Shown here piece by piece: positions 1-64,000 of a stretch of 64,000 bases of DNA. The position numbers and the translations under genes were made by a program. This DNA is from Psammoneis japonica (taxonomy: Eukaryota). The notes beneath the pieces are model-generated. The model was not told the origin of the DNA and did not search any database. It was given only the letters and a program-made list of their open reading frames with translations. Where the stretch lies: assembly GCA_008632985.1 (NCBI GenBank), contig QPGO01000042.1:372001-436000 (forward strand), read 5' to 3'. The number at the start of each line of letters is the position of its first letter. Within the stretch, counting starts at the first letter, position 1.

Positions 1-178
1 GAGCAAAGACCATGATTCTGACACCCTTGACGAGGAAAATTGTCAGTTTGAAAAAATGACGCGCAGTCATTCTGAGGAATGACTTGCACCGCAAGAGGAG
101 TCTTGCGCTCTGCTGGACATTGGGAAGCCCAGAAAAAGGGCCAAAGTAATTCACACTAGTCCAGCAGTCGTCGCCCAT

Positions 179-3100: not shown

Positions 3101-3287
3101 ACGTGCTCCTTGCACGTGCAGAGCAGGAGAAAAGACACTGCTCGAGAAAGACTCGCAAAAATTAGAACAGCCCTGTGTTGGACCGCATGCAATGACAACG
3201 GTGCATGCCAATGGCACAGCACAGATCAAACGCGGTGACGTCATTGACACTGTCAACATTCGTCGAACAATGCCGTTTGACGACTGA
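179..3287 (+). mobile_element. Ty3/Gypsy LTR retrotransposon pol (protease-RT-RNase H-integrase), frameshifted and TA-hypermutated; 5' part lies outside the window
   Basis: Protease ILLDSGT; RT WAAPTFVQPKKNGRVRFLSDFR, LPMG and a degenerate YxDD (THIDD); RNase H DAS..LGAV, YATTEKELLSIV, YTDHKNL; integrase HPG..C..C, CVDLIGP, DRGSEF, NAIVERVH. The PR-RT-RH-INT order is Gypsy. Frame breaks near 490 and 1975. Confidence 0.95.
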
Positions 3288-3300
3288 CTCTAATGTGCAA

Positions 3301-3707
3301 TTGGGGAGGCGAGTGCAACATGCGTTGTCATGCACGCATTGTGCGTGCGTGTCCATGTGTCAAATAAAAGCACATTTCAATCGCACGTCAATCGTGGGTT
3401 CGTACGAAGCACAGATCAGTCACACAGAAGTGATCGGATGTCGAGAATCGCAAATGCGATCGTACGATGATGTTGACATCTTGTGTGTCAACATCAATCG
3501 TGTCCGGACAATCTGTCATCACGATCACATTCTCCGAAAGGCCTTTTGTCTGCAGGAGCAGTGCAAAAGGTTCAGGCTGTTGAGAACCCGTTCGGAGAAA
3601 CCCAAAATGATTGCGTGGAAATGATTCTCATAATTTTCACCTTTTGAACTTCGTTCTACTTTCGTTTGCACTCGTTCTTCGAGCATGGTGCACATGGTTG
3701 CATTGCA
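3301..3707 (+). mobile_element. Polypurine tract (3303-3313) and putative 3' LTR (~3314-3707) of the Gypsy element
   Basis: GGGGAGGCGAG directly after the integrase stop, followed by TG. Candidate end ...TGCATTGCA at 3707, after which CpG density drops. Confidence 0.55.
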
Positions 3708-6243
3708 GAAACTGAAGCTCTTGTGCTTTGAAGCATCATTTTTTGAACAACTTCATGCATGATTGCATTTTGGTGCTCTTCTGGCAGCATGTGTGGTGCT
3801 GACACACTGGCCCAAGCTCTGCCTTGTTAATTGTTGCTCAAAAGCTGGTCAAACAACACAGCCACACAAAACTTTTGCCAGCAGCTTCTTGTCTCAAAGC
3901 TGCTCTCAAGTTCATGTTGGTGCAAACATCATCGTTGGAAAACTGGAGACAATTTTCTGAAAACAGCGCTGTTTCTCAGCACCAACCTGCTGAGAAAAGC
4001 ACCAACAGCTGTTTTTGTTGGCCATGACAAATCAAGGGCAAGTCTTCATCACAAAAAAGCAGGTGCATTTAAAAGAGAGATGCTGGCTTCATGACAAGGA
4101 GCAAGACTTTTGCAGGCAACAATTTTGCCTCCAGCTGCTGTGTGACTGTCAAGAGTTTCTTGTCACTTGCTTCCCACATGCTCTGTCAGCCAAGAGCACA
4201 AGTTGGAAATGATTGTCACACCCCCATCATGTGGCTGTGCACATGTGAGTCAAACAATCCCTGCCACTTGTGGCATTTGCAAGAGATGGCTGGCAACCCT
4301 TGTGTTGTCAAAATTTGGTGATTGCAAGACATGAAATGGCAGATTTCTTGATTGCTGCAAATGCTCTCAGGGATGCTGTGGTGTGAAGAATCTTCCATGA
4401 AGCCAAGCAGTGCTTCTTGCAATGTAAAAGCAGAAGAAAGCAGCAAAAAATGATTCTTTTTTTTGCTTTTTTGGGTTGCAGGCCACAACAGGCTGTCTTC
4501 ACCCCCACCAAAGCTGCCAGCACCCTGGCTCCATGCTGCAGCTGCTGCTGTCACAAAAGCAATTGTGCACTGCCCTGTTGCTTGGCTTTGTTGATGCACC
4601 CATCTGGCCACTGCCCAGCTCAACATCATGACAATTTCCAGCTTCTGAGACTCAAGAAGCATGAGAGAGCAAGAATGTCATTTGCCAAAGAGCAGAGTCA
4701 CTTTGATGCTGCACAAGGGCAGTGTGCCATGCAGCAGCACCACTTTGCCAACTCATCCTCTTTTGTTGTTTTGGGTTGGTGCAGCACCATTTGTTGGAAA
4801 AGTTTCTCACAAAGTGTTGTCAGGCCCACACCCAGCACTTTGCAAAAGAGCAAAGAAAAATGATGGCTGCTTTGCAGTGTGTGGAAATGCAGGGATGCCA
4901 AAGCTGGCTGCTGTCTCTCACCATCATTTTGTGCACAAAAAACACAAATGGCTTGTAGTTCACACAACCGTTGCACACACAGTGCAAGGAGGTGGTGAAC
5001 ACATCATTGAGATGACAACACGCAATGAATTTGGCCAGGGCTGTCTTTCAGCTCTTGCTTGTTTGTGTTTTGGGTGCTTGTTTCCAGGGAAAAGGTTGGC
5101 ACAGAAATCAGCTGGGCAAGTGCAAATGTGGAGAGAGATCAGCATCTCATGCTGCCACCAAGCCAAGCAGTCTGCCTTGTTTGACAACTGAGACCTGGAC
5201 CCACTCCTGGATTTTTGGGTGTGCAGCAACAGTGCAAGCACATTTCAGGATGTGCCCCAATGTGATGTGTGCACACACCATGCTTCCAGCCCCTGAACTC
5301 ACTCTCAGAGAGAGGGAGCTCTGCACAACCACTCTTTGACTGTGCAAAAGGCCAGCAAGCAAAAAGTTGTCTGATGTTTCTTGTTGTCCAGATGTTTCTT
5401 GCTTGCTGCCAGGGTGAAAAAAAAGGCAGGTGCACAATTTTGGACACAAGAGTGCACAAATTCCAGAGAGCCATGATTTCTCATGCTGCTGCTGAGCTGG
5501 GTTGACAACCAAACCTTGTCAGGTCCATGCCTGGATCTGGGCACACACCTTCACAGCATGCTTGTTTGGGTGGCACACCACTTTTTTGACCTCACTCTGC
5601 ACACACAATGATGTGACAGCATCATGGCATGTGCTGGTTTGGTGCCCAGCTTGTTCGCCATGAGAAGCCAGCTGGGCACATGGGGGAACATTGTCACAAG
5701 AAAAGAACAAGAGGGTGCCTGCGCTGCACATGCTGCTGTGATGGCTGCTGTCCACCTTGCACCAAGCTGGGCCTGGGTGCTGGCCACATCTCATGCAGCT
5801 TCCATGGCAGTGCAGGAAAATGGCTGTGATCCACACCAGTCCATCTGGAGGCCAGCTGTTGCTGCACCTTCTTGCAGAGGAGGGGGCAAGGGAACCCCCC
5901 TTCCCCCCCCCCCCCCCCCCACACACACACACAACACATGAGCACAAGTGCCGGCGCCGACAGCGTGCTGGTGGAAGAGGTGGAGGGCCTTTCAACCACC
6001 CATTTTTGTTGCAAGAACAACAAAAACTTGTGGCCTTGCTCTCTTTGAGAAGACCTCAGAGAGGACTTCAGAACGCGGTGGGGCCCTGACATCCACAGCC
6101 CCCACAAGACTTGCTGCCGGCATTGCTGCAAGTGAGCGGCAGCAGTTTGCCATCTGCTGAAGGACATGCGCGCCAATCCTTGCTTGCTTGCCTTGCTTCA
6201 CCCATCACAATCACCATCCACAGCCCCCACATGAGACTTGCCA

Positions 6244-8078
6244 CCAGCAAAAAACCAAATTGAGTCCTCATGACTGAACTGAGCATTTGTCCAACCCAAT
6301 TGTTGAGTCGATCAACAAATGAAATGATGAAAAAAAACAGGAATCAATCTGTGCTTGTTTCTGCAAAAATCTTCAATGGCAGCTGCTTTGGACCATGTGC
6401 TTGGATTTGGGTGCTTCGCTGTTCTCTGGCAGCCCGTTGCCATCGAACATGGTCGTTTGCATTTTTGAACACAAAAACAAGATTCAACAATCCTCTCTGA
6501 GACTTGCACCTGACATCACACAACAATTTTGTTAACACGCAAATGCAACATTCCACATTTTGAAACTTCTGAATTTGATGCCAACATTCCAACCTTTCAC
6601 CCACCACAATGATCGTTTCGTTGTTGGTCATTCCTTCCCACACAGAGAAGTCAGCAAGTGCAACGTCGTCCAAGTCTCCCACTTTCCTCATCAACTTCCA
6701 CCCACTGCGCTTTGTGGACAGTGTCTTTCTCTTGAACCGACAGCAACAACAAGCATCAGCTCCTCCAGGACATGGTGAAGAGGGGAGATTGCCTGAAGGA
6801 GCATCAAAGGAGACAACTGGAGAAGCTGAAGCAAGGCATGGGACATGGGATTGATGTGTCAGTCCATGTCCCAGCAAGATCTGTTTTAAATCAAGCTGCA
6901 CAGAACTGACCCCTGTGACACAATGGCTCATGACTGGGTGTCACATCCACAATGCAAAAAGTCAAGGATGCACTTGTTGGATGTTGCTTTGAATGGAAAA
7001 AGTGCACTCTGTGGATGCAAGCCAGCATCTGATCCACAGAATCCATGTGCCAAACTTGCTCTCAAAGTGTTGCAAAGGCTTCATGAAGCATGTGTGCCTT
7101 GCTGCATCTCTGCGTTGCCTCATGCCGGCATGACAGGAGAGATGCTCAGACATTCTTTGATGCCTTGAGGAGTTGGAGCTTCTTCCACGAGTGCATGGAG
7201 GTCCCGTGCCTTCAACAACGCTCAATGGCCATGGCTTTGTGTTGATTTAACAGGAAGCTGGTGGACACTGCTGCAAATGCATTGACAACTCGGCGCCCAT
7301 TTGACACCCTGCATTCAGCACGGCAAATGAAAACAACAAAGACAACGACAACAAAAAAGACACCAGCGAGATTGCTTCAGAATGAAGCAGCTGCATGGCA
7401 TCAAAAAACACTTCAAAATGCATTTGCTGTGACACTTGCAGAAGCCTGATGCACTGCAGCAAATGTGCTGTGAGAAGATGCCGTGCCGAGAACCTCTTGG
7501 CGCACTGCACTGGCAAGCAGATGACATTGTTTGATCTGCTGATGATGGGTGCAAAGAGTCATTGCACGAAAAAGGTGGTGCAACTTTTAAAGCCAGATTC
7601 AGCTGATCCCAAGCTCACTTCAAAACAAACTGTCATCCAACAGGTCTGCCAGTGAAAAACCAAATTGATTCCTTGTTTTTGCCAATTGTCGAGTGGCTGT
7701 TTTTCGCCTCACATTGGCTGGAGCTGACCATTTCTTCGCATTTCCTGTCCTTTTTCATCATCTCAAAATGTGGGATGTCACGCGCATGTGTTGACAAAGC
7801 TGTCACATGACATCAGGTGAGAATTGTTGAATCTTGTGCTCGCGTTCCAAAAACGCAAACAATGACCATGTTCGACGGCAACGGCCGCCCGAGAACAGCG
7901 AACCACCCAAATCCAAGCACATGGTCCGAAGCAGCTGCCATTGAAGATTCTCATAAAAACAAGTGCAGCTTGATTCCTGTTTTTTTTTCATCATTTTATT
8001 TGTCGATCGATTCAACAATTGGGTCGGACAAGGGCTCAGTTCAGTCATAAGGACTCAATTCGGTTTTTTTTTACTGGT
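6244..8078. repeat. ~260-bp inverted repeat pair (6244-~6500 / ~7815-8078) enclosing ~1.3 kb; possible non-autonomous TIR element
   Basis: The arms are reverse complements, also visible as near-identical ORFs MTELS..RSTN.MMKK on opposite strands. 6131-6220 also recurs directly at 8095-8185. Confidence 0.8.
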
Positions 8079-17678: not shown

Positions 17679-18117
17679 GAGGACAAAGGCGTTGTCGACA
17701 CTAAAGGATCTACGACAGCTGAACTCTCTTGAACGACAGCGCAGTTCGTCCGTAATGTCTTTGTTGCCTCCTCCCGTTTGTGAAGCGCTGGTGTTTGTTT
17801 TCCAGTTGCTTCCGACCTCACTGCCGAGAAAGATTTCGTATGAATACAAGTATACGTTCCCGAAAGCAGTTATTTCAATCCGAGGTGCTGACGTAATTTA
17901 GTCGAAGTATTCCATCAAATCGAAAACTCATAACCTTTCGGCAAGAAACAAAAAAAATGAAAAGCGAAAGGTGATGCTGGTCTATCTGGTCGGTCGTGTG
18001 TGTTGGTCTGTTTTCAAGTCTTGGATGCCTTGGAGAGAAGTCAGTGACGGCATCCTATTGAAATCGGTCTTATTTCGAGAACAGCGTCAAAAATGTTGGT
18101 GTCTATAAAGCGTAATT

Positions 18118-19644
18118 ATGGAAGAAACGAGAGACATAGAAAGTGAATCGCCTCCGTCGCTTGCTTCAGACACGGAGCAAGAACTCCATCGCTGCTATCC
18201 AAAACTACGGGGACAGCCACTTTACGGGGGGAATCGCGAGGCTTTAGGATGGGCATTGGACTCGGTGGGCCGATCCGTCGCCTTTATTTGCGCCGGGGCT
18301 TTTCTTGGAACAGCACTTCTTAGACTGGCGAAACTAGATGCGGGATGCGAAGTCGACCCACCCGAGGGAGAGACCGAGGTTCCCGAATGCAACGGAAAGG
18401 TGTATGGGATTCGTCCTTCTTCCTTACTCACCACTTACACGATCATTATTGGCCTCTTGTCGGCTTCGCTCATGCCTCTCATGGGCGCAGTTGTAGACTA
18501 CACACCCCACCGCAGAAGGATTGCCAGAATCACTTCGATTGCCTTTTGTGTTCTGCTGGTACCTCAAGTATTTGTTGCTCAAGAGACTTGGTTCGCAATT
18601 GCCGTTATTCATGTTGTTTCAACTTTTATTGGATGGGCGCAGAGTATGATCACCTACGCATACCTACCAGAACTCACCACCGACAAAGCACTCTTGAACA
18701 AGTTTACTTCCAGTTTTACAGCCGTTCAGTTCCTAGCAATGGTTCTCTATCTTGTTATGATCTTGGGAATAGCAGCTCTTGCTGGTATCGGAGATGATGA
18801 AGTAGCTGTTGCTCGATTGGGACAGAGCGTGGTTGTGGTTGTATGCTCCCTGTTTCTTTGGCTTGCTTGGGGACATCTCATTCAAGCGCGCCCTGCTCTG
18901 AATACGCTCCCAGAAGGACGCTCAATATGGACTGCTGGATTCTACCAAATCTTTCACACCTCTGTTCGGATCTATCGTCACTTTCCTGCCCTCAAGTGGT
19001 TCTATATTGCTGTGGCTTTTTCCGATGCAGCTATCCAATCACTGGCGACAATCGCAATCACATACCTTACAGACCAGTTGGAATTCTCGTCGACGGAAAA
19101 CGGAATCGCCATACTAATTATGCTAATATCGAGTGTACCAGGTGGACTTGTTGCTGGATGGTACACGGCGAGATTTGGAAACGCAGTTCATAGTTCCATT
19201 TGGAGTACCGGGATTATAATCATTACAACAACACTCTTTGCAGTCTTTGCGACTGGACCTGGACAGCAGATACGTACTTATGTTTTTGCGGTTGGTTGGG
19301 GTTTGGGAACCGGTTGGAAGTGGACATCGGACAAGCTGCTATCCAGCACCATTATCCCTTCTGGTCAAGATGCTGAGCTAATGGGAATGTTCCTCTTTGC
19401 TGGACAGGTGTTAACGTGGATTCCACCTTTGGTTTTCACCGGATTGAACGAAGCAGGTGTGTCACAGAGAATTGGTATCGCCTCTCTCAATGTCTTCTGC
19501 CTTTTTGGGGTAGTAGCATATTTTCTCATGGGAAGCTACAAAGACGCAATCCAGTGGGCGGCTGCAAAAGACGAGGAGGAGAGATCGAATTCGGAGGACG
19601 CTTCGTCGACCGACCATGCGGCTGAATCGGATGTCGACACCTGA
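18118..19644 (+). CDS. MFS transporter, Atg22/UMF1-like vacuolar effluxer
   Basis: 508-aa single-exon ORF with ~12 hydrophobic segments, N-terminal REALGWALD, PLMGAVVD and AYLPEL motifs. Confidence 0.75.
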   Translation: MEETRDIESESPPSLASDTEQELHRCYPKLRGQPLYGGNREALGWALDSVGRSVAFICAGAFLGTALLRLAKLDAGCEVDPPEGETEVPECNGKVYGIRPSSLLTTYTIIIGLLSASLMPLMGAVVDYTPHRRRIARITSIAFCVLLVPQVFVAQETWFAIAVIHVVSTFIGWAQSMITYAYLPELTTDKALLNKFTSSFTAVQFLAMVLYLVMILGIAALAGIGDDEVAVARLGQSVVVVVCSLFLWLAWGHLIQARPALNTLPEGRSIWTAGFYQIFHTSVRIYRHFPALKWFYIAVAFSDAAIQSLATIAITYLTDQLEFSSTENGIAILIMLISSVPGGLVAGWYTARFGNAVHSSIWSTGIIIITTTLFAVFATGPGQQIRTYVFAVGWGLGTGWKWTSDKLLSSTIIPSGQDAELMGMFLFAGQVLTWIPPLVFTGLNEAGVSQRIGIASLNVFCLFGVVAYFLMGSYKDAIQWAAAKDEEERSNSEDASSTDHAAESDVDT

Positions 19645-19974
19645 CAAGTCCGCACACTTTTATCTTGGTTTTGCCAGTACTAATATAATGTTAAAAGAGG
19701 GTGATTGTTGAAGCCTTAACATACATAGTGTCTACTAATAGCTAGGATTCGGACACAAACACACATCTCTCTGTCTCTAGCTTTAGATCGCGCATCAACT
19801 AAAACAAACTTTCTACAAAACTCAGGAGATCGGACCCTCATATGCTAAAGAAGTAGTCATCCATTCGATCGATCTCATCGCGAGAAGTTCAAAGTAGATC
19901 AACTGCCTGCTGCCCGTGTGATTGAATGTGCGCGTTCCGTCGTCAGCACGCATTCTGAATTCCCGCGCCAACGA

Positions 19975-20350
19975 GCGGTTCAGCACGCGGACCATTGGAG
20001 CCAAACTGGCTGCCAATTCCAACTGATTGGGCCCCGTAAACATCTCGGACGGCATGATTTCTCCAAAAAACAAAACCAACGTGACAGAAAGGATCACAGC
20101 CACGTGGCTTCCTGCTGGCGAGTCAAAAAAGAGTGGAAGGGCTTCGTTGGCAATCGAATTCAAGAGCAAGAGTGATGCGAGTTGCAGGTGATGTTGCTTG
20201 ACAATCGGCAGCAGTCTCTGGGCCAGATGCTTTTCCTGGGGACTCGCCGCCACTCAAATCTTGATGTGAAGCAACAAAGGATTGATGCTGAGAAGTCCCA
20301 TGGTCAAGCCAGCAGCCAAGGCAGCCATCATGACACAGACAGCAGCCATT
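19975..20350 (-). pseudogene. CNNM/DUF21 transmembrane-domain gene fragment, frameshifted and TA-depleted
   Basis: AALAAGLTMGLLSI..., HHLQLASLLLLNSIANEALPLF, VILSVTLVLFFGEIMPS..FTGPNQL match the CNNM/DUF21 consensus. No downstream CBS domains are visible. Confidence 0.8.
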
Positions 20351-20899
20351 GAGGCGCTGCAAATGTAAAGCTGTTTTGTCCTTGTCAGTTGCCTCCTCCT
20401 CCACCAGGCAGCAAGCTCTGCTCCGATGAACATGGAGGAATCTCATCACCCAACATTTTGCACTTGCCAGCAGATTCTTTGTTTTTGTGACACAAAAACA
20501 TTGCACCCACGGATTCCAACAATGCAACAGCATCACGAACATCCTTGTCATCCGCTAAATCAGCATGTTGTGCTCAGGCATTGAATCACTTCGGCGTTGC
20601 ATTTTCTGGCGGCCGATGAACTGAGAATGCAACCAAGTCCACAGCAGCGATTCTGGCAAAAGAGAAGTGCCAATTGGTGGCGGCAATCACAAGTGGAAGC
20701 AGCAAGCAATTCCCAGCTGTTTGCTGCAGCATGAACATGAAACCGGGAGCTCCTCATCATCTTTTCATCACTGCTTGTGTGTGCCATTGGCAGGGGTCTG
20801 TGCCACGCAATGGACTGATGCACATGGACAACAGGGAGGTTGCTCAACAATTCACCTTTTAGAAGACTCTTCAGAATGACACCCAGCATTTTGCGCACA

Positions 20900-21160
20900 A
20901 AACTTGTGGAAAAGGCTTGATTCGATCAGATGCGTCTTTCTCTTCATCGGCCCAAAATGAGATCGCAAGAGAGAATGCAGGAACAGCTTCAGACAAGGGA
21001 TGGCATTCACACAAAAAGCAAAGCTCATGATGCTTGTCAGGATCGGAGCCAAAACCAACTGCCAATGCACAAAGCATCAAGTCCTTTGTTGTGTGGGTTG
21101 CCTTCAACTCGACCAAACGTCTCAAATCTGAGTTGACCGCTTCCATCACTGCCCATCTCA
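20900..21160 (-). pseudogene. Fragment resembling the N-terminus of an MFE-2/MaoC-type enoyl-CoA hydratase 2
   Basis: HTTKDLMLCALAVGFG...LCFLCE.HP...AVPAF resembles YT.RD..LYAL.VG...L.FLYE..P.F...PTF with Tyr replaced by His/Cys. Confidence 0.6.
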
Positions 21161-21678
21161 AGAATGCGCTTCTCTCTCTCTTCTTTGCTTGTCTGCACGA
21201 GAAACGAAAATCGATGACAAACCTTGTTGATCTTGCTGCGATGCCTCAGTGGATCACCTGCCCACAATCTCAAGGAATGGCTCGGCTCATGTCACACCGA
21301 ATGAGGCGCTGACGACAACTTAGTGCACTGGGAGTGTGGGTTAGCTTGTTGCCGGAGTTGCAGGGTGGAAGCGTAGCAGCACTTAAAATTAGATTTTGGG
21401 TTTTGTTTTAGCATGTACGGTAGGCTAGTAGAGTAGAGAGAGGTGCAACGTTCGCAACACCGTTCATGCTAGCTGCACACATGGTCATCGCAACGTTACC
21501 CCCTTGCAGTGACAACAGCGCGCTTTTCATGCTCGCATCGCGCATCGCCTCCAACAGAAAAATGGTGCTAACCTTACCGGTGAACCAACCAAACTCAAAA
21601 CAACAAGAAGACATTGGGTTGCTATCCCGACCTCCTTCTTCCCATCTCTCTTGCCCGACGATTTGAAGAATCTTCATC

Positions 21679-22992
21679 ATGGCTTCTGAGAAAGACCCGT
21701 CACAATTGATTCTGAACGATGATGTCGACAAGAACCAGAAGATTTTGGAATCCAACCCTCTGCCCTCCGATTCAACTGTGAGCGCTAATCCTCACATCCC
21801 TTCTGTCTCAGCATCGGCTGTGCTAGGAGAAAGTGCGTCGATGCCCGAGGGCACGCCACAGATTCGAGGACACTGCTTTTCTTCTGGTAAACAGACGTCT
21901 TCGGAGGATCTGCTCGATTCTATAATGGCGTCCATGCGTACCACAGGCTTTCAAGCCACCAACGTCGGACTTGCCATCGAACAAATCGAACAGATGCGGA
22001 ACTGGCGGTTGAGTTCCGTCCCTTTTAAAGAGGGAGACGACGCGGCTCTCCGACCTCCAGAAGTAAGAGATCGGATCAGGGCACGAATCTTTTTCTCGTA
22101 TACTTCCAATCAGATTAGCTGCGGACAGCGTGAGGTCATTCGATTCCTGGTACAAAACAGAATGGTGGACGTTTTAGTAACAACTGCGGGTGGGATTGAA
22201 GAGGATCTTATAAAGTGCTTTCAACCGACCTTTCTCGGAGACTTTAAGCTAAATGGAAGGGAACTTAGAAAGAAGGGTATCAATCGAATTGGAAATCTAT
22301 TAGTTCCCAACAAGAACTACTGCCAGTTTGAGGATTGGGTGGCACCGCTTATTAACAAGATGCACGATGAGCAAGACGAGGCGTGGCTGGAGTGGGCCAA
22401 GACTGTTGCTAACCAAGCCGAGTCCCCTAAAAGCGATGATCAACTACCGCCGAAATTTGTTTGGACGCCTTCCAAAGTAATCGAGCGATTGGGACACGAA
22501 ATCAACAACGAGGAAAGCGTCCTCTACTGGGCAGCAAAAAATGAAATTCCTGTATTTTGTCCGGCTCTTACTGACGGCAGTGTCGGGGATATGCTTTATT
22601 TTCATTCCTACAAACGCCCAGGCTTTGTATTGGACACGAATCTCGACATTCGAAGGATCAATGATTTGGCGGTCAAAAGCCATGCCACCGGTATGATCAT
22701 TTTGGGTGGAGGACTAGTGAAACACCACACGTGCAATGCAAACCTGATGAGAAATGGCGCAGATTATTCTGTGTATATCAACACCGGACAAGAATTTGAT
22801 GGGAGTGACAGTGGAGCGTCTCCAGACGAGGCAATAAGTTGGGGCAAGATAAGAATCACAGCAAAGCCAGTGAAGGTATGTGCAGATGCCACCATTGTGT
22901 TCCCTCTTATTGTTAGCCAGACGTTCGCTAAAGATGTGGACGGATGGAAGGAAAGAACAAAGGACAGCGTGTGCTTTGTTGATGACCTTTAG
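21679..22992 (+). CDS. DHPS: Deoxyhypusine synthase
   Basis: [82 protein letters not shown]. Confidence 0.97.
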
Positions 22993-24489: not shown

Positions 24490-27400
24490 CAATTATTGGT
24501 ATTTTTAGTCATTGCCCAACGCCAATGGAGACCAGGACATTAAAAAAACGGGTGACAGCGCGCACGCGCAAAGAAATCCACAAAATTCCGATTCAAAACA
24601 CAACCAACCGTCACCTCCATGACCGTCAGTTTGTTGCGTCCGTCTCATCCCGTAGTCTGCATTGTTGCTGTATAACACATCATAACTCCACTTCATCCGC
24701 TATGGAGATAAAAGGCTGCTGATTACTGGCTTATCACTTTCTCCATAAAGATGGAATGTCGTTTGATGACTTATGCACCATTTTTCGGCACGGAGCGACA
24801 GTGCGTGGCAGGTAGAGACGACTCGTTTATTGTATGTTGACACCAACTGGCTTGTCTCGGAAATGTAGCAATCATATCAATGGACTTATCATTGGGAAGA
24901 GGCAGCAGTGTAAGTGGCAACCGTGTGCCTTGTTGCGTGCCAGCAGTTGTGTGTGTCTGCACTTGATCAATTGATCAACCAGCAATTGATTCACCTGTTG
25001 CTTTGGATACACTTCTTTGTTATCCCACGTAAGACATATGGAGTGGGCTTTGTTAAGAATTCAGACGTTGCCATGGATCAGAAGACTGTGTTTCTAAAGA
25101 ATCTTCCGTGTCAATGATGGCGCACTACTTGTTGCAGACAATGGTTTCATGGATGGCACACGTGACGTTGCAATTCCGGATGGCATATACGGGTGGCATA
25201 TTTCTTGGTTCAAAGCATGAGCATGGAGCAGACAGCGGCTCTTTACTTGGAACCACACTTGGCCGTTCCAACAGCATTGATGATGGCGCACCACTCGGTG
25301 CAGACAATGGATTCATGGATGGCGCACGTGATGGCACATCACTTGGCATTGCGGATGGCATAGGTGATGGTACATTACTTGGCACGGAAGATGAAATTGA
25401 TGATGGTGTAGCACTTTGACTTCAAATGGGGAGAGGAGTGTTGATAGAACCGCTGACCGTTTTATGGATGGTACCTCACTAGGTTTAAATGGTGTTGGAC
25501 GTGTTGCACTAGCAGATGGTGGCATTGGGCATGGTGTAGCCGGTGTTGGGTGTGTTGGACGTGTTGTACCAGTGCATGGCAGTGATCAAGATGATATCCT
25601 TGGACTGGACATTGAATGTATGAGTCGAAGACTTTCGGGTCCAGAACAACGTTCGAAGCGTAGCTCTGGATGGACCGAGTATTTAAAACGGGGCGGAACA
25701 CTAGACGACGTCATGTTTGGACCAACGAAGATCCAAATGACACCGTCTACCACATTGGATTCCTATTTTCTATCGCGCTGTGGTAAGCAATCACCGTGTC
25801 AATATCCCCACAGCAATGGCGTGGTACAAGAGGCGTTTCCTATAAGCCATGCTGCGAATGAATCTTCCAAGACAACGTACGTGGTGGACATTGAAACGTC
25901 AAGGATGGATTTTGCAATTTCCATTATTACAGAATTGGATGCTTTTCGGGATCCATGTGGTTAAATGAAGGAAGATCGATCTTGGTTCTGGGACTGTTGT
26001 GGCTTTGGCAAGGCGCCGGAAAACTCGACGAAGTACGAAGGCAAGGGAATTGACTCGGGCCAACAAGTCGGTGCAGTAGAGAGTAGATAAGACTCGGATG
26101 ATCCTAGTGACAGAATGTTAACAAGTGACAAACACACATGCTAAAGATGGATAGGTTTACTGTCCATGTCTCGGAGCTGTCGGGACATGTTTAACGTGGC
26201 ATCAAGGTCAACTCGACAGTGCCATGCCGTTGAACAATCGTGTGACACATGGCTTTCCAGGCTAATTTTATGCCCAAGCCTACACCATAAATGTGCATTG
26301 TTAATAACTGCTTCTTTTTACTGACAATAAGAGAGTTGTTTTGATCTTGTTGTATCTAACAACCTTGTCACCTGCCATTCTCGTAACCGCTTGATGTTAT
26401 GGAGGCTTTTGACATTTCGGATCTTTCAATCACGTGTTCAATTCGGTACACACTCGACAATTCCAGGGGCATTAAGTTGTTGCGTTTCCTCGCCCGCTCC
26501 AATAAATTCGCCTCGTGCAAGACACAATCAAAACAAGAATATGAAGCCACCAGCAGCCCATGCTCCCACCGGTGCAATCACGGTTTCAATTCCGTACACA
26601 CTCGACAACTCCAGGGCGTTGAGTTGCTGCGTTTCCTCGCCCGCTCCAATAAATTCGCCTCGTGCAAGACACAATCAAAACAAGAATATGAAGCCACCAG
26701 CAGCCCACGCTCCCACCGGTGCAATCACGGATTCAATTCCGTACACACTCGACAATTCCAGGGCGTCGAGTTGTTGCATTTCCTCGCCCGCTCCAACACA
26801 TTTGCCTCATGCAAGACGCAACCGAAACAAGAATATGAAGTTGCTAGCAGCCCACGCTCCCCATCTACGCCATGCCCATTGCCACCCACGCCACCATCTG
26901 CTGGTGCAACACATCCAACGCCGACTGGTGCGCCGCACCCAATGCCAAATGCACCACCATCTGCCAGTGTAACACGTCTAACACCGCCTTGATTGCTGGC
27001 AGTGCACACGCTCCAACCGCCTCGACCAGCGCAGCAGCCACACAGGCTCCCACCGCCACCAGTGCCAGCAGAGTAACCAGGCTACCACTGCCACCAGTGC
27101 CAGCAGCACACAGCACAAGAGCAGGCACCGCAAGAAGATAGAAGGATCCAACCACCTCGATTGCTGGCAGTGCACACGCTCCAACCGCCTCGACCAGTGC
27201 TGGCAGCCACACAGGCTCCCACCTCCACTGGTGCCAGCAGCAACCAGGCTCCCACTACCACCAGTGATGCCGTCCACAAATCCATCAGCTGCACCGACTG
27301 CGCACAACCTCCCAGTCCAACGGTGTGGGTCCACTGACAAGATTGCTTTGTTTCCGAGACAAGCCAATTGGCGTCATCCATCATCTGAAACAAGCAACAC

Positions 27401-28105
27401 ACCAGCAACTGCGTGACTCCATCATCTGTTCCGAGCAGGGCGCTGTCGTCGACACTGTCGGAACCACCAGGTGTGGTCCCAAGTCCATGCTCATACTTTG
27501 AACCAAGCAATGTGCCATCGGTTTCTCACAAAATCACAAGTGTCGACACAGAAGATTCTTTAGAAACGTAGACTTCTGACCCAAGGCAACAAATGAATTC
27601 TTAACAAAGCCCGCTCCACACGTCACACGTGGGACACTTGTGTTAGAAGCAAAAGACAAAACAGGTGATGGTTGCCACTTGCGCCACTGCCTCTTCCTGA
27701 TGGCATGGGTCCACTTGCACGATTCATGTGTTTCCGAGATGTGCCAGTTGGTGTCAACATGCAACAAACGAGTCGTCTCTGCCACATGCCACAACATGCA
27801 CCGTCGCTCTGTGCCGCAAAGCAGTGCATGAGTCATCAACCGATGTTCCTTCTTTCTCGAGAACGTGACACACCAGTGATCGGCAGCCTTTCATTCCCAC
27901 AGCATGTGAAATGGGGTTCTGATGTGTCAAACAGCAACAATGCAGACCACCGGGATGAAACGGACGCAACCAACTGACAGTCATGGTGACGGTTGGTGTT
28001 TTTGAATCGGGAATTTTTGGGATTTCTGTGCGTGTGCGTGCTGTCACCCGTTTTTTAAATGTCCTGGTCTCCATTGCACACAAAGTGCGATGCTAAAGAT
28101 GCCTT
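24490..28105. repeat. Large inverted duplication (arms ~24490-25575 and ~26860-28105) of a degenerate PS/PT-repeat secreted-protein gene and its 3' flank
   Basis: caatggagaccaggacattaaaaaaacgggtgacagc and gctttgttaagaattca occur in both orientations. Relic peptides include PSDVPSRAPSMNP and PPSASATRPTP. Confidence 0.85.
26437..26860 (+). repeat. Tandem repeat, three copies of a ~147-bp unit
   Basis: ttcaatt..gtacacactcgacaa...aaacaagaatatgaag starts at 26437, 26585 and 26732. Confidence 0.9.
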
Positions 28106-28333
28106 TCAGTCGTGCCCGAAACCTGGAGCCAGCCAGCTTTGGCAGAACGCACGCACCATTCCTCCTCCCCTCCTTGCATGGTCTCAGTGGGCAGTTCAAA
28201 ACTGAAGTTACAACATCACATGTCACCTCTCTGCTCATGCTCTTCAGTTCTTTTTTACCCTCTGCATGGACACCTCTTCCCACCCCATGTCTGCAAAAAA
28301 CAATGTTTGCTCTGTGTCATGACAACACACATC

Positions 28334-28593
28334 GGCCTGTTCCAGCTCCAGGTGCTCCGCTTGGGTTCGATTCCCATCATTTGGAAATTTGTGCATTTGG
28401 CGCAATTGACTTTTTCCAAATCCGTTTTTTGCCAAATCGAAGGGTGAGTGTACACTTTGCATGTATTTTTGGTTGTACACTCACCTTTCGATTTTCGAAA
28501 CGATCAAAATTGAAGGAGTTGATTGCGCTAAACTGCGCAGAAAATCGGCCTCTCGCGTGATGAAAAGCAGATCACCTGGAGCTGGAACAGGCC
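28334..28593. mobile_element. 260-bp fold-back / MITE-like element
   Basis: Perfect 21-bp terminal inverted repeat GGCCTGTTCCAGCTCCAGGTG (28334-28354 / 28573-28593). Nested internal inverted repeat aaatcgaagggtgagtgtaca / tgtacactcacctttcgattt. Confidence 0.7.
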
Positions 28594-31500
28594 CATCATG
28601 CTGCTCCTTGTGCACCCCTCCTCTGCTCCTGCAACAAAGCTGTTTCAACACCTGCCCTTGTGCTTTCCCTCGTGTCTCTGCTTCTGCTCTTTGGCTCTTT
28701 CTCAGTTTAAAAACATGGAAGGGACCATGTGGTTCATGATGTGGAGAGAAAAAAAGAAAGATGAGTGAGAAATGACTGCACAACCAAGGAGAGGAGGATG
28801 TCCAACAAGCTTCTTGTGTGCGGTGGTGGTGGCTGTGCAGCTGAAAAAAGAAAGAGACCAACAAGAGCAAACCTGTGGATGAGAATGCTCCAGCTGGAGG
28901 GAGACATTCTGGCGAGGAAAAAGCAAAGATTCTGCCACTTGTTGGGAAGAGAAAGGCAGAGAAGATAGAAAAAAGAGCTGTTGGCTGGCTTCTGGGAGGT
29001 GCCATCTCCCACCCACAATCTTCGACAGTGGGGGCAGGGTTTGTTTGCTCAATTGATCACACCGGAACAAGCAAAACTTCTTGCTGACTGATCTGTTGCT
29101 TCTTAAACTCATGAGAAGTTCAGTCTGCATCAGCTGCTGCCAAGCTTGAAAAGAAGACCACCTCACATGTTCACATGGCAGCAGTGGGAGCAGCACAGAG
29201 CAGCTGGCTTTGTGGCTCGGGGAGCTCCCCAAACCAGGTCTCCAGAGGCAAGCCCTCCAGGGTGGTGCAAAGTGCAAACAGTTGACAGGCATCAGTTGGT
29301 GCCTGTTTTTTTGTTGCCCTTGAGTTTCCTTTGGAGGATTGGACTCTGACATGGTGCCCAAAAGCTCACCAGCACATTCAGCCAGCAGCAGCACCAGTGT
29401 TGTTGTCACTTGGCACACTGCCACACTTCCATGCAAAATTCTTCACAAAAACCTGTCAAGACAAGGCAATGGCGATGCTCCTGTTGTGCCCACGGTTGTT
29501 TTTGGCACCACTTGAGCACCCCTGTTTGCCTGTGCCACACTTCCCACAGCACTGCACTGTGCTGCCATCACTCCCTCCTGTTGTTTTGGGTTCACAGAAG
29601 GCATTGTGTTTGCAGCTCATTTTCAAGGGGTCAACTGTTGTTGAAACAATCTTCACAACCACCACATGCAGTGCTGCATTTCTCCACATGTCACATGACT
29701 TTCTGCTCATGTTCTCATTGCCACTCTGCAACTCCCTGTGGCAGCAGTTTTTTTTTTCAAATGCCACCAGCTGCCAAGTTGACAATGCCAACAACTCAAG
29801 ATGTGGCCTTGTTGTAAAAACACCATTTCAAACACAAAGCTTGCTCAAAAAATGCAAGTGCCTTCCCAGCATGTTGAAGAGCAAATCAACATCCCAAAGT
29901 CAGTTGGCACACCCTGACTTCATGAACCAAGACAGACACATCCTTTGACCCAGCAATGTCAGCTTGAAAGCAACGGCGCAATTCTGTCCACCAGAAAATG
30001 TACATTGTGTTTGCTCAACAATGGTTGATGGCAACAGCATTGACACCACCACTGTTGTCCTCATTGACTGGCTCAAGGGGGGTCATGCTGCTTTCCAAAG
30101 AAGCAACCCTTGATGCGCTGTTTCTTCAAAGAGAGTCACATCCCTGGCATTGCCATGTGCAGCATTTCCTTTGATGGATCATGTGGACAAACACTGTCAG
30201 CATTGCTGCCACCAGAAACCTCTGCTTTGGAGCTTGAAGTGCCAACCTCAGCTCTGTCAACTTTGCCAGCAGCGTGCACAGTTTAGCTCACTTTTTCTCC
30301 CAAGCCACAAAGGCAAATGTGGAAGACATTGCCATTGTGCCACCCGGCACCAAGAAGTTTGCTTGTGCACTGGGGGTCTGATGTGCAAATGTCAGCTTTG
30401 CTTGCACCCATTTTTGCAAGTGCACTGGATCCCAGGAATGTGCTGCAGACTTGACATGGAGAAACCAGGGCATCTGCACCCAGCAGAGCACCTTCCAAAT
30501 TTTCTCAATTTCTGCAAAGAGTCCAGATCAGAATCTCCAACACATCACCCAAGTGGCAACATGGAAAAAGAAGAGTCACAGGATCAAACAGCACATTGCA
30601 CAAAAAAGCCATGCATCAGAATGCTGGCAGCACCACCAAGAAATGCAATGGATCTGGGGCACACTCCAGCTCTGGACAGGACCTCGCAGCACTGGGCTGC
30701 AACAGAATGGTTTTTGATCATCCTCAATGCAGAAGCTGCACACACATCATTTCTGCATGCACTCTTTTACAAAGCTGTTTTGTGTGCTGCCACCATTTTG
30801 GGAAGCTGACAGAGTTTTGTTTCAATCATTTCTGAGAAGAACAAAACCAAGCTGGCTGCATGTTTTGCGACATGCATGAAGAGCACAACTGAGCACACCA
30901 TGAGAAACAACACACACACACTCACCTCAAGTGCACATTGATGACTTGCTCAAGATTGCAAAATTGTGTCTTTTTCCATTGGCAGTCATTGATTGTCATT
31001 TGTTTCCCAGTGACTTGTCACATGTGGTGTCACAACCAGGGTTGGAGAGCAATGAGCAAAGGGGGCACCCCCTCTTTCACAGCAAGAGGGCATCTTTGCC
31101 AGCCCCATGGCTGACAACATGGTGCGACAAAAGCGCCCATCAGCACCATGCTCACAACTCCCAACAGCACTCATGTCATTTCTCTCACCTTGTGAGCTGA
31201 TGTGGAGCCACACCCACTTGTAAAATGGACTCAGAGGTGTCTCCAGGTCCTTTTGAGGTCCAAGAAAAAGAACAAAGAATGCAGTCCACAATGCCTTGTC
31301 AATGCCTTGGCTTGGGTGAAGAAGTTTTCACAATCAACAGAAGCCAAAATGGATTTTTGCCCACATTGTCCTGGCACAACCAGCTTCTTCAAGTCCAAAG
31401 TCAGCAGAGTTGTTTGTGTCACATCATCATTGGCGGCAACACACAACCCTCAAGAACCCCCAGCCAATGCATGGCACTCTCTTTTGACAGCATTGACTGC

Positions 31501-32586
31501 ATTTCCAAGCCTTTCATTGGCAGTCATTGCCTGGGTGCAATGGGTGTGACATGAAATTTGGCAGGGATGCTGGCGGTGCCTCACAACAATGTGAGAAAGT
31601 GTGCTCAACACACACAAGTTCTGCGCGCCATTTTTGCAGCATGTCTCCCCATGCTCAAATCCATGAGCACCTTCCATTGCAAAGAAAAATGAATCTCACT
31701 GTGTAGAAGAAAAAGCTGCTGTGCAATCAAGAGAGAGCAACACTTTGAGATTGGAGTTTGCAGCTTTGTCAGAACAGCCCATGTGTGTCTCCCCCCTCCT
31801 GTGCCCTGCTCCCAACCAGACCAGAGACAGGTGGGCAAGATGACAGATGGGGTTTGGGGCTGACACCAGCACTTTTACAAAGACCAAATTTGCAAGCAGT
31901 CCTTGCACACAAAATGGCACCCAACATCTTTTGAAGGCTGTGGTGGGGCTGAGCACAATTTGCACTGTGGTGTTCGAGCACAAAACATGCCAAATTTTGA
32001 GTTGTGCCTCAGCCACTTTTTGGTTGGGATGCCATTGACTCCTGACCAACCAGCTCACTGTTGTTTTCTCACATTTTGAGGTCATTAAAACCAAACATTT
32101 GAGTGCCAGCTGCTTTTATCTTGCAGCTGTTCACCTGAGTCTGTGCACACAGCATGATGTGGCACTTCTTTCCATTGAGAAATGTCGGGTTCTGTGCACA
32201 GTGTGGCTCATTGTAAACAGTGCACACAACTGGATTTTGTGCTTTTTGCAAGCAGCACTCACTTTCAAACTGGGGCAAACTGGGGACCAAACAACTCAAC
32301 CTCCTTGACTCCACCCCTGACAAGGGCAATCACATGATGCAAAAAGCCCATGCTTTTGCTGTGCTGTTGTTAAAAATTGGTGCCTGACAATGAAAATCTC
32401 TTCAGCTGAAATGTCCTGCATGGTCATTTGCAGCAGAAGCTGCTCAGAGAATGGTCGCTGAGCCTGGGATTGTTGTTTGCCTGAAGTGATCAAGGAACTC
32501 ATTCAATGTCCACAATCAACTTTTCATTTTCCTGCCATTGAGCTTCTTCCTGAGAAAAAATCCCTTTCTTTTTGTTTTTTGCTCAT

Positions 32587-35360
32587 TGCACCAGACCATT
32601 TGTGGGCCACAAGTCCTGTTGTTAAATTGATCAGAGAGGAGCATGATGGAGATGATGCTGATGAGACACATTTTGTGACACTCACATGGATGTCACTGAG
32701 TCTTGGTTTGTGGGTGATGAACATGTCCAAAAGAAGCCCAAGAACATTGCTGGGATGTTCTTCTCTCCAAAGTTGATGAGTTGATGTGATGCCAATCACT
32801 CCATTGTCAATTGTTTCATTGTCACCCCACATTTGTGAAGACAATGGGACATTGATGGAAGCCTCGTGCACCAGCCACACTGGTCAGACTGTGCGCAGAT
32901 GATGGTCAGGCACTTTTGAGATGGTCGAAATCATGTCTCTGAGATCTTCTCTCACTCTTTCTCACTGGTGCACATGTTGCCCACTGCTGCTGGTTTGCAG
33001 GGATGAGCTCTTCAGCAGCATGTCACTGCTCTTCTTGCCACCACCATTGCACCCAGTTGAATTTTCAACTGGTTGCCCAACGTCCATGTCCCACATGCTC
33101 CTGCTTTGTTGTCTGTTCTGTTGGTTTCTTAACCCAACAAACTGCCTTCATTTGACAGACATCATCTGCCACCACCTCTCGCCCCCACTTTGTCCAAACT
33201 CACCTCACAGCATGCATTGCTGCACAGCAAAGTTGGGCTGGCAACCCTGCCCTGAAGTTTGTGCACAGTTGTTGCACAGTTGTTGTGCTGTTGCACAAAA
33301 CTGGGAACTGGGTCATTTTCATCCTCTGGCTGAATTTTGGAGTTCTCTTGTTGGTGAAACCCATCACAGGGACTGGAAAATTGATGAGAACACATGCATC
33401 TCTCCTTGGAGTCACATGCAAAACAGACATGTTCTCTTCCTGCTGCCTCTTTTTCTCATGTTTCCTCAAAACAATGGACCCCATTTGTGAAATGCAGGCT
33501 GACCTCACCCAATGACCATCAACCCTCATGAATTCCAAATCATCCATGGAAATGCCCCCCCATCAGCTTGACTCCCTTAAAGAGCCTGCAGTGTCACCAG
33601 CTTTTTTTCTCCACATCCTCATTGAAGCTCATCATCAAAGAGGGGGTGGCCACATGGCAAAGCTTGAGAAGTGGGTCCACACACATGCCTCTGGGCAGGG
33701 CACAAACAAAATGTCCTTGGGCAGCTCATCTTGAAAATCCAAATGCTCCCACCTGGTGCCCCACTTTTTCCACTTGAGAGGTTGCTGCTTGTGCCTGTGG
33801 GTTGCAACATTGCAGGTCAGAGGTTGCTGAGCAAGGGATTTTGAGTGGGTCCCCTCTGACACCTTCTTGAAAAAGGTTGGCCTGGTGTCAGGACTCATCT
33901 GACCACAGTGGATGAAAACACTGCTGAGTCATGTCTTCAGCTGCACCAGCTTGCTGAGACAAATGCAAGACAGAGCATGTTGTGTTGACAAAACAACAAA
34001 ACATGTGATGTCAAGAGCTCTTCTCTCACTGCACCAGACCATTTGTGGGCCACAAGACCTGTTGTCAACTTGATCAAAGAGGAGCATGACAGAGATGATG
34101 CTGATGAGACACATTTTGTGACACTCACATGGGTGCCACCAAGGAGTCTTGGTTTGTGGGTGATGAACATGTCCAAAAGAAGCCCAAAACATTGCTGGGA
34201 TGTTCTTCTCTCCAAAGTTGATGAATGTGATGTGATGCCAATCACTCCTTTGTCAATTGTTTCATTGTCACCCCATGTTTGTGAAGACAATGAGACATTG
34301 ATGGAAGCCTCGTGCACCAGCTTCACTGGTTCATTCTCTCTGCTCCAGCCAGCGGAGAGACTCCACCACTCTCTGCTAGAGAGCAGCCACCACAGACCAC
34401 AGCAGAGAGCAGCTTGGTGAATTTGCAGATGCTGCATCAAAAACAAAGGGGCAAGATCACTGCTGACAAGAGAAACATGACTGCTGTCCTCTGGAGGGAA
34501 AAAAGTGGAGTCCACGACTTGATGCACATTGTGCATGTTCTTTAAGAACAGGGTATGACAGATTGCATCATGAGCACCCAGCACATCCAACCAACCCAGT
34601 CTCTTGTGGATGCCAGCCTTGTGGTCACTTGACATGTCCCTGGTGCTGTTCACCTGAGCAATGACCTTGCCAAGGCTCTTGGGTCAATGCTGCATGCCCA
34701 CCATGCCTGTTGGATGATGGGTCGTTGCTTCCATTGAGTTGCTGTTCTGCCTTTTTTTGGCACCTGCAAAATTGCCCTTTGTTGTTGTGTTGTGCCTGAC
34801 TCCTTCAAGAGTCATCTGGTTTGATTTGCACTCCCTTTGGTTGACTGCCACCTTCCCTTTTCATTCTGTCTGTGATCTGCTGTGAGTTGTCTGCATCAGA
34901 TGCTCTGGATCAGGGGAGAGTGCCAGCTGACCAGGTCTGCTGCACACAGTCAGACTGTGTGCAGATGATGGTCAGGCCCTTTTGAGATGGTTGAGGTCAT
35001 CTCTCTGAGATCTTCTCTCACTCTTTCTCACTGGTCCATGTGTTGTCCACTGCTGCTGGTTTGCAGGGATGAGCTCTTCAGTGTGTTGCTGCTCTTCTTG
35101 CCACCAGGGTTGCACCCAGTTGAATTTTCCACTGGTTGCACAACATCCATGTCCCACATGCTCCTGCTTTGTTGTCTGTTCCGTTGGCTTCTTAACCCAA
35201 CAAACTGCCATCATTTGACACACATCATTGGCCGTCTTTGTCCCAATTCTCATTCCTGCTTGGTGTTCCCTTCCATCCATGCATCTCCACCACCTCCCAC
35301 CCCCACTCTCTCCAAACTCACCTCACAGCAGCACACATTGCAGCAAAGTTGGACTGGCAA
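32587..35360 (+). repeat. Dispersed direct duplication: 32587-~33245 recurs as 34030-34321 plus 34944-~35360, with a ~620-bp extra segment in the second copy
   Basis: tgcaccagaccatttgtgggccacaag and cagactgtg..cagatgatggtcagg are shared. Duplicated ORFs read MVE.(M/I)SLRSSLTLSHW. Confidence 0.85.
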
Positions 35361-35669
35361 CTGGCAACAAAAATCCCAAACGCAGAGAGGCAGACTTTTG
35401 TCAGCAAGCAGCCATGGCTGGGGAAGTCCCCCGATTTTGTCCAGCTGGAATGCATTGGGAGTAAAATCCACTTCCAACAATGGCTCCAGTCCATGTGGAG
35501 CCACTCACCACACATTGACAAGCCTGTGGTGAAGTTGCACTTGCATCCAGTGGCATCTTGCTGCAACAGACTTCCATGTTGAATGTCGATTTCAATGCTC
35601 TTGGTTCAGGCAATTGCACTGACAAACACTCAGACAACATAAATCGTGAGACATGGAAACTCGAAACTG

Positions 35670-60018: not shown

Positions 60019-60103
60019 TGATCTCCTGCACACTTCAAGCCAAATCCACCTCAATGAAGGTCAAGTGCAGAACAAAAGTCTCCAAGAACATGGAGTGCAT
60101 CTC

Positions 60104-60927: not shown

Positions 60928-60929
60928 TT

Positions 60930-63990: not shown

Positions 63991-64000
63991 TCTGCGAGCC

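What the first reader, a model, noticed from the sequence alone, without database searches (positions are those of the whole stretch)
19900..21320. 1.4-kb TA-depleted island of fused host-gene fragments between two intact genes
CNNM/DUF21 and MFE-2-hydratase-like fragments lie in tandem with Tyr->His/Cys changes (GSHVAV, LMLCALAVG, FLCE). The flanking genes are untouched. The process therefore also hits duplicated cellular genes, not just TE proteins, as expected for homology- or chromatin-triggered mutation. The island may be Pack-type or Helitron cargo, but no termini were identified.
Basis: partly seen in the sequence, partly recalled or inferred. Interest (0 to 1): 0.7.

Follow-up and report, generated by a model that had tools for sequence, protein, structure and literature searches.

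The report
TA-erased chimera of two host genes
A dead 1.3-kb patchwork of two ordinary diatom genes has had 45 of its 48 TA steps rewritten to CA, TG or CG while the source genes kept theirs, which shows that a barely known DNA-mutating process also hits the cell's own sequence and does not simply strike every duplicate.

Summary
Observation confirmed. The island is a dead chimera in a pennate-diatom genome: the 5' 750 bp of a CNNM gene (donor family on C10) joined to the 5' 583 bp of an MFE-2 hydratase gene (C30), then an 88-bp LINE 3' end and a relic of a 0.3-kb repeat. Against intact parents, 45 of 48 TpA are lost (25 CA, 18 TG, 2 CG, all transitions, no strand bias); other A/T sites change at 4.5%; 35 of 75 CpG decayed, mostly in the centre. 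Parents, two sister CNNM duplicates (1 of 68 and 6 of 47 TpA lost) and the small repeat are largely spared, which argues against simple RIP-like pairing. No Pack or Helitron ends. Both donor breakpoints lie 85-109 bp from copies of the same nine-locus repeat whose relic flanks the island, which points to repeat-guided break repair. The TpA signature matches a 2026 Bigelowiella preprint on integrated viruses. This scan has already noted it many times elsewhere in this genome, also on dead gene copies. Trigger and enzyme are not shown.

The parts
18109..19644 (+). Left flanking gene, ATG22/MFS-like transporter, open frame, TA o/e 0.67
   Evidence: run X1 contig has 0 differences over 18400-20019
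19646..19896 (.). Spacer with normal TA (21 TA, o/e 0.91); last TA before the island at 19895
19897..19989 (.). 93 bp without TA but with CpG intact (12 CG); source unknown: native spacer at the domain edge or a third piece
   Evidence: no second genomic match by DNA search or by a TA/CG-degenerate pattern
19990..20740 (-). Copy of the 5' part of a CNNM (DUF21) gene, from codon 3 to about codon 247; 27 of 29 TA lost, stops and frameshifts
   Evidence: 85-88% identical to three C10 copies L002-L004; Pfam match at window 19975-20346
20739..21321 (-). Copy of the 5' part of an MFE-2-type enoyl-CoA hydratase gene: about 136 codons (20739-21146) plus about 170 bp upstream of the ATG; 18 of 19 TA lost; shares 2 bases with the CNNM piece
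   Evidence: 85% identical to C30:558084-558655, L005; Y18H, Y26C, Y46C
21322..21409 (+). Last 88 bp of a LINE family (endonuclease, RT-like and RNase-H-like frames), ending in a short T-rich tail; keeps 5 TA counting the junction
   Evidence: 36 other matches, a lower bound
21410..21440 (.). Filler; 21409-21421 is a 12-of-13 inverted copy of 21459-21471 (a templated-insertion-like scar)
   Evidence: pair I23; 0 of 200 shuffles reach 12 of 13 (test chosen after seeing the pair)
21441..21526 (+). Relic of the right half of a 0.3-kb dispersed repeat (nine loci), whose left half lies 85-109 bp from the donor breakpoints on C10 and C30
21527..21582 (+). Weak collinear similarity to the DNA right of the repeat at the C10:281 kb CNNM copy (L004/L041)
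   Evidence: 0 of 200 shuffles reach the score, 1 of 8 loci tested; null maxima of other loci reach it: marginal
21679..22992 (+). Right flanking gene, deoxyhypusine synthase, open frame, TA o/e 0.54

Best explanation
Two steps. (1) Assembly, inferred: the island was built at DNA level by error-prone break repair guided by a small dispersed repeat. A segment holding the CNNM 5' part and its neighbouring repeat was copied from C10 into the MFS-DHS spacer. A later break in the repeat was repaired from the C30 copy and brought in the adjoining MFE-2 5' part. A LINE 3' end then replaced the left half of the repeat. (2) Mutation: the spectrum is shown, the cause is inferred. The dead chimera became a small silent chromatin domain in which a DNA-level activity turned A:T into G:C at TpA on both strands almost to saturation, while CpG methylation decay acted more weakly and mostly in the centre. 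Targeting is by local state (silent, TE-like chromatin), not by foreign origin and not by pairing of any two similar sequences. The most likely chemistry is adenine deamination to hypoxanthine in TpA (about 0.4 on its own); the enzyme is not identified.
For: Shown: 45 of 48 aligned parental TA changed, all by transition; 47 of 96 TA bases against 26 of 578 other A/T bases, Fisher p=5e-27; CA:TG 25:18, p=0.36; 1 new TA gained. Polarity: Tyr18 and Tyr26 of the hydratase are Tyr in 114 of 118 and 114 of 119 homologues, His or Cys in none. Parents keep TA o/e 0.62 and 0.50 over the copied spans, although 39 of 50 TA there are non-coding or have a silent option. Sister duplicates lost 1 of 68 and 6 of 47 TA, against 28 and 30 expected at the island's rate ratio. 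Seven full repeat copies keep 59 of 68 TA cells. Edges: CpG transitions 7 of 30 in the outer bins against 28 of 45 in the centre, p=0.001, while TA loss is 19 of 20 against 26 of 28 (bins set after seeing the pattern). LINE ends beside normal DNA keep more TA (5,4,2,5) than those inside depleted DNA (21 copies, 0-3), p=0.009. Assembly: donor breakpoints 109, 86 and 85 bp from the repeat, same orientation, with nine repeat loci in 91 Mb; 2-base overlap at the gene-gene joint, inverted filler, no target duplication. 58 of 126 500-bp bins of the window share the depletion.
Against: No chromatin, methylation or expression data. The sister duplicates are younger (background 0.8% and 1.5% against 4.3%), so an old burst that predates them would explain their sparing under any trigger; part of the island's background may itself be repair noise. 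L004 has a mild TA excess (p=0.03), and the repeat copies show 6 CA/TG cells, so sparing is not absolute. What made this 1.3-kb piece silent is not shown: its LINE end keeps most TA, and a solo 85-bp LINE end elsewhere (L006) has normal TA on both sides. The order of the assembly steps is a reconstruction with no intermediate found. The donor spans hold no intron, so an RNA template is not excluded. The nine deaminase matches look like housekeeping enzymes.
Confidence: 0.55

Rival explanations
1. RNA route: a LINE reverse transcriptase started at its own 3' tail and jumped onto antisense transcripts that run toward the small repeat (or the repeat is a SINE that carried 5' flanks); the insertion was then silenced and mutated as part of a retroelement, guided by small RNAs to the LINE end.
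For: A LINE 3' end with its tail is joined directly to the cargo; distal truncation would fit 5' truncation on the LINE's strand; several repeat copies are followed by a short-unit TC/A-rich run like a retro-tail.
Against: Cargo is antisense to the LINE, keeps the 5' ends of the genes and non-coding upstream DNA, with no poly(A) and no target duplication. It does not explain the repeat relic to the right of the tail. The LINE end is the least mutated part; the solo end L006 left its flanks unmutated.
Confidence: 0.2
2. Reverse-polarity RIP: pairing between the copy and its parents triggered TpA mutation, one-sided or with mutated parents removed by selection, in rare (sexual) episodes.
For: Both pieces are longer than 500 bp and were identical to their parents when copied; depletion ends close to the limits of the homology; B. 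natans hypermutation was active in only some lines.
Against: Parents unmutated even at silent and non-coding TA; at most 2 CA/TG discordant columns; a 1.8-kb, 99% identical pair 8 kb apart lost 1 of 68 TA; 93 bp with no known homologue is also TA-free (weak, 3.6 expected); the B. natans NCLDV target is single-copy.
Confidence: 0.15
3. Pack-type or Helitron cargo, mutated as part of a DNA transposon; the small repeat could be the fixed end of a non-autonomous rolling-circle element.
For: Two gene pieces in tandem and in one orientation; CNNM plus repeat is duplicated as a unit between L002 and L004.
Against: No terminal inverted repeats, no target duplication, no conserved TC or CTRR ends in the repeat alignment; left flanks of two other repeat copies are single-copy native genes; no second copy of the chimera; sequential Helitron capture predicts an MFE-2 piece at C10, which is absent.
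Confidence: 0.07
4. Assembly or base-calling artefact, or RNA A-to-I editing before reverse transcription.
For: Run X1 differs from the assembly at several island sites.
Against: X1 contigs match the island at about 99% (2 of 181; 6 of 596 with 2 gaps), one crosses the gene-gene joint, and depth 57-61 equals the flanks (54-58); CA and TG are equally frequent, which single-strand RNA editing would not give.
Confidence: 0.03

Closest known systems
TpA hypermutation of integrated NCLDV and virophage DNA in Bigelowiella natans (Mettrop et al., bioRxiv 10.64898/2026.01.13.699255)
   Same: TpA to TpG/CpA transitions on both strands, confined to local regions, enzyme unknown (ADAT2 proposed there).
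   Different: Here the target is host gene sequence in a 1.3-kb chimera, in a diatom, near saturation (94%), with added CpG decay; there the targets are 25-186 kb of viral DNA with TpA still common and the rate measured in mutation-accumulation lines.
Repeat-induced point mutation (RIP) of fungi
   Same: Dinucleotide-specific transitions that wreck duplicated or mobile DNA inside sharp limits.
   Different: Opposite direction (A:T to G:C, destroys TpA where RIP makes it); only one partner is hit; near-identical sister duplicates are spared.
CpG methylation decay in diatom transposons (DNMT5; Phaeodactylum paper PMC9998398)
   Same: CG to TG/CA in 35 of 75 sites.
   Different: Cannot produce the TA changes; methylation itself was not measured here.
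Pack-MULE and Helitron gene-fragment cargo; templated insertions from break repair (features recalled)
   Same: Tandem pieces of two unlinked host genes, microhomology at the joint, inverted filler.
   Different: No transposon ends; donors are chosen by adjacency to a shared small repeat.

Membership tests
B. natans-type TpA hypermutation | A:T to G:C transitions restricted to TpA, both strands | tested here: met
   45 of 48 TA changed, all transitions, 25 CA:18 TG:2 CG; other A/T 26 of 578
B. natans-type TpA hypermutation | Local confinement, neighbours spared | tested here: met
   flanks TA o/e 0.54-0.91
B. natans-type TpA hypermutation | Target is foreign (viral) DNA | tested here: not met
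   targets are copies of two host genes with diatom homologues
B. natans-type TpA hypermutation | Ongoing raised mutation rate in some lines; silent target | not testable with these tools
   needs mutation-accumulation lines and RNA; the differences of X1 that were shown include three CG decays and no TA change, 64 rows not shown
Fungal RIP | C:G to T:A transitions | tested here: not met
   main signature is the reverse; the CpG part fits methylation decay
Fungal RIP | Both copies of a duplication mutated; any long similar pair is a target (recalled) | tested here: not met
   parents and sister copies spared; caveat: sisters are younger
Fungal RIP | RID/DNMT4-type enzyme, premeiotic timing | tested here: inconclusive
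   27 C5-methyltransferase matches, not classified by tree; timing not testable
Pack-type DNA transposon | Terminal inverted repeats and target-site duplication | tested here: not met
Pack-type DNA transposon | Fragments of several host genes | tested here: met
Helitron | 5' TC, 3' hairpin plus CTRR, AT target (recalled) | tested here: not met
   CTAG at 21425 and 21469 is not shared with other loci; repeat alignment shows no such ends
Helitron | Autonomous Rep/helicase partner sharing the ends | not tested
   no search made
LINE-made chimeric retrocopy | LINE 3' end with tail at the 3' side | tested here: met
LINE-made chimeric retrocopy | Cargo in the LINE's sense, mRNA 3' ends, target duplication | tested here: not met
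   cargo antisense, 5' ends kept, no duplication
LINE-made chimeric retrocopy | Intron loss | not testable with these tools
   donor spans align without introns
Ambal-like LINE (label recalled) | APE endonuclease, RT and RNase H in that order, placement by RT tree | tested here: inconclusive
   endonuclease Pfam E=6e-6 and weak zf-RVT; RT and RNase H motifs by eye only; no tree

The most novel reading that the evidence does not exclude
Diatoms have a natural TpA-specific DNA adenine editor that is aimed by silent chromatin alone: it needs no foreign sequence, no transposon gene and no pairing partner, can saturate a domain as small as 1.3 kb between two working genes, reaches further out than CpG methylation decay, and so disables stray copies of host genes that repeat-guided repair creates.
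Probability: 0.4. Interest if true: 0.8.

Novelty: new variant of a known kind. Interest (0 to 1): 0.5.

Why it matters
The one published case that I found is on integrated viral DNA and was read as defence against foreign sequence. This island has host sequence with parents in hand, so it gives a polarised before-and-after record plus built-in controls (parents, two sister duplicates, a small repeat, a solo LINE end). It moves the question from whether the process exists to what aims it, and is a small, PCR-sized locus for methylation, chromatin and allele tests. It also shows a route by which a nine-locus repeat pulls neighbouring gene starts to new sites. The general TpA process in this genome was noted many times by the scan already, so the added value here is the controls and the anatomy.

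Tried and rejected
Empty-site allele: none in the assembly; no joint skipping the island in 3 runs laid as contigs, but contigs drop rare variants, all are one sample, and it may be the source sample. No RNA holder listed; run X2 covers the flanking genes and the CNNM parent but not the island copy, which is not evidence on expression. Target-site duplication: a 6-mer (19893/21427) and a 10-mer (19787/21537) were found and not accepted, the first being expected by chance and the second marginal and enclosing TA-normal DNA. Source of 19897-19989: not found. Identity of the small repeat: no Rfam match at E<=1, no exact match of its motif in metagenome contigs, no compensatory pair in 18 predicted pairs; snRNA, spliced-leader and ribozyme ideas stay unsupported. 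The repeat as a general gene carrier: 2 of 2 other left flanks tested are single-copy; C29 and C188 flanks were not searched. Enzyme: 9 PF00383 matches read as dCMP deaminase, TadA, ADAT2, RibD and guanine-deaminase-like by motif (labels recalled); ADAR-type, TET/JBP and adenine methylase families were not searched. Context rule: the strand reading TA-pyrimidine was changed in 18 of 26 asymmetric sites (p=0.076); only 1 of 3 surviving TA is YTAR and 7 of 8 YTAR sites were lost, so this island does not confirm the YTAR rule. A column tally over 19 LINE copies (7 of 26 short, duplicate or own loci left out) shows CA and TG alternating at 81 columns but cannot separate TA from CG ancestry cleanly and was not used for a count.

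Full report
Setting. The window is C40:372001-436000 of a 91-Mb, 597-contig assembly. Named homologues of the hydratase parent come from pennate diatoms (Seminavis, Cylindrotheca, Fistulifera, Nitzschia), so I call the host a pennate diatom. 58 of 126 500-bp bins of the window have TA o/e below 0.2; the island is a small member of that class set between two normal genes.

Observation. The span 19900-21320 has 4 TA, o/e 0.05; 245 windows of that size in the gene-rich blocks have 33 or more. The peptides quoted are present. The flanking ATG22/MFS-like and deoxyhypusine synthase genes are open and have TA o/e 0.67 and 0.54. Logan contigs of run X1 match the island at about 99%; one (20517-21114) crosses the gene-gene joint; depth is 57-61 against 54-58 in the flanks and 138-179 on the three-copy CNNM parent. 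Limits: 8 of 252 X1 pieces were listed, 64 difference rows were not shown, the left joint is crossed by only 30 letters, the MFE-2/LINE joint by no listed piece, one piece at 21380-21514 has depth 33 (possibly heterozygous), and X1 may be the source sample.

Parents. 19990-20740 matches three CNNM copies on C10 (L002-L004, 85-88%); 20739-21321 matches one hydratase gene on C30 (L005, 85%). L003 has a 597-residue open frame and L005 a 367-residue one; L002 has a deletion in its 3' part and L004 is frameshifted and truncated. Both pieces are 5' parts: CNNM from codon 3, the hydratase from about 170 bp upstream of its ATG.

Spectrum. With L002 and L005 as parents, 45 of 48 aligned TA changed: 25 CA, 18 TG, 2 CG, 3 kept; with L003 as CNNM parent 28 of 30 changed. 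All changes at TA bases are transitions. Other A/T bases changed at 26 of 578 (p=5e-27). CA against TG is 25:18 (p=0.36), so both strands are hit. 35 of 75 CG became TG or CA, against 9 transitions in 472 other G/C bases. One new TA arose. Homologues polarise the change: Tyr18 is Tyr in 114 of 118 and Tyr26 in 114 of 119, never His or Cys; Tyr46 is Tyr in 82 of 119 and never Cys. One site goes the other way: at S100L the island state is the commoner among homologues (51 against 2 of 120). CpG decay is centre-weighted (7 of 30 in outer bins, 28 of 45 inner, p=0.001, bins set after the fact), TA loss is not (19 of 20, 26 of 28), so the two look separable. A preference for TA-pyrimidine is weak here (18 of 26, p=0.076).

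Controls. The parents keep TA o/e 0.62 and 0.50 over the copied spans, though 39 of 50 of those TA are non-coding or have a silent option. L003 against L002 (1.8 kb, 8 kb apart): 1 of 68 TA lost. L003 against L004: 6 of 47, a mild excess (p=0.03). At the island's ratio of TA loss to background, 28 and 30 would be expected. These copies are younger (background 0.8% and 1.5% against 4.3%), so a past burst is not excluded. Seven full copies of the small repeat keep 59 of 68 TA cells, with 6 CA/TG. A solo 85-bp LINE end (L006) has normal TA on both sides, and the hydratase parent is unmutated next to a partly depleted retroelement.

Right end. 21322-21409 is the 3' end of a LINE family (36 other matches, a lower bound); a long copy shows an endonuclease domain (Pfam E=6e-6) and RT-like and RNase-H-like motifs seen by eye; the label Ambal-like is recalled. 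The cargo is antisense to it, and it keeps 5 TA. 21441-21526 is a relic of the right half of a 0.3-kb repeat with a 22-base internal tandem unit, found at nine loci. The left half of that repeat starts 109, 86 and 85 bp from the donor breakpoints in L002, L004 and L005, always in the same orientation; L003 lacks it. With nine loci in 91 Mb this cannot be chance. The gene-gene joint has a 2-base overlap; the filler behind the LINE tail is a 12-of-13 inverted copy of nearby sequence (0 of 200 shuffles); 21527-21582 weakly resembles the flank right of the repeat in L004 (marginal). No terminal inverted repeats, target duplication or Helitron ends were found. At C30 the tandem unit is interrupted by an RT-bearing element with a 24-base duplication (CRE-like by recalled motifs), which offers a possible source of breaks in the repeat; that is inference.

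Mechanism. I favour stepwise break repair between repeat copies for the assembly, followed by silencing and a TpA-specific DNA mutator aimed by chromatin state (0.55 together). Rivals: a LINE or SINE RNA route with TE-guided silencing (0.2), reverse RIP by pairing (0.15), Pack or Helitron cargo (0.07), artefact or RNA editing (0.03). Shown: parents, spectrum, polarity, controls, repeat adjacency. Inferred: order of events, chromatin state, chemistry. A search for CDA-fold deaminases gave 9 housekeeping-like matches, among them an ADAT2-like gene; 27 C5-methyltransferase matches were not classified.

Known work. Mettrop et al. (bioRxiv 10.64898/2026.01.13.699255; I read parts 1-3 of 5: abstract, introduction, results, discussion, conclusion; not methods, references or supplements) report TpA to TpG/CpA hypermutation on integrated NCLDV and virophage DNA of Bigelowiella natans; the NCLDV region is single-copy and silent, and 11 of 15 lines were hit; they note host-type domains among depleted coding sequences, and their supplementary tables, which I did not see, may hold host-gene cases. 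I was led to it by earlier notes of this scan. PMC9998398 (passages) gives DNMT5-dependent TE methylation in Phaeodactylum and DNMT4 of unknown function in diatoms. PMC5348765 (passages) added nothing on Ambal. Searches listed no diatom report of TpA loss, and no matching case of repeat-guided capture; the library lacks most subscription papers. RIP, Pack, Helitron and templated-insertion features are recalled. The scan's own notes report the process many times in this genome, including dead gene copies; none matched this island or the small repeat by sequence.

Verdict. Real, well controlled, a new variant of a once-reported process; interest 0.5.

Noticed in passing
C8, C10 (two), C29, C30, C35, C188, C220 (L040-L048) and window 21441-21526: A 0.3-kb dispersed repeat with a short hairpin and four 21-22-base tandem units, not TA-depleted, often directly upstream of a gene; no Rfam or metagenome match; identity unknown.
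   Followed up: partly
L064 about 2330-5555 (C30:558830-562055): A 3.2-kb RT-bearing non-LTR element (CRE-like by recalled motifs) sits inside the repeat's tandem unit with a 24-base duplication; it is only partly TA-depleted (o/e 0.05-0.4). It may target that unit.
   Followed up: partly
L004 / L066 (C10:281 kb): The broken CNNM copy lost 6 of 47 TA (5 CA, 1 TG) and lies 1.5-2 kb from a TA-depleted block: possibly an early or light stage of the process.
   Followed up: partly
L113-L115 (C301, C297): Several cytosine-methyltransferase gene copies lie in TA-depleted DNA (o/e 0.03-0.09), some with stops, while others are in normal DNA; an expanded family partly hit by the mutator.
   Followed up: no
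L006 (C5:198720): A second solo LINE end truncated within 1-2 bases of the same position as in the window, unmutated.
   Followed up: partly
window 20648, 20681, 21168: Run X1 has TG or CA where the assembly has CG, suggesting CpG decay still segregates in the island.
   Followed up: partly
window 1-1500, 3500-8000, 27000-42000, 54500-64000: Large TA- and CG-depleted blocks; N runs at 62720-63018 and 63300-63495.
   Followed up: no
L072 (C79:88.5 kb): A deaminase-like domain in one open frame with a 2-oxoglutarate/Fe dioxygenase-like domain (read by eye).
   Followed up: no
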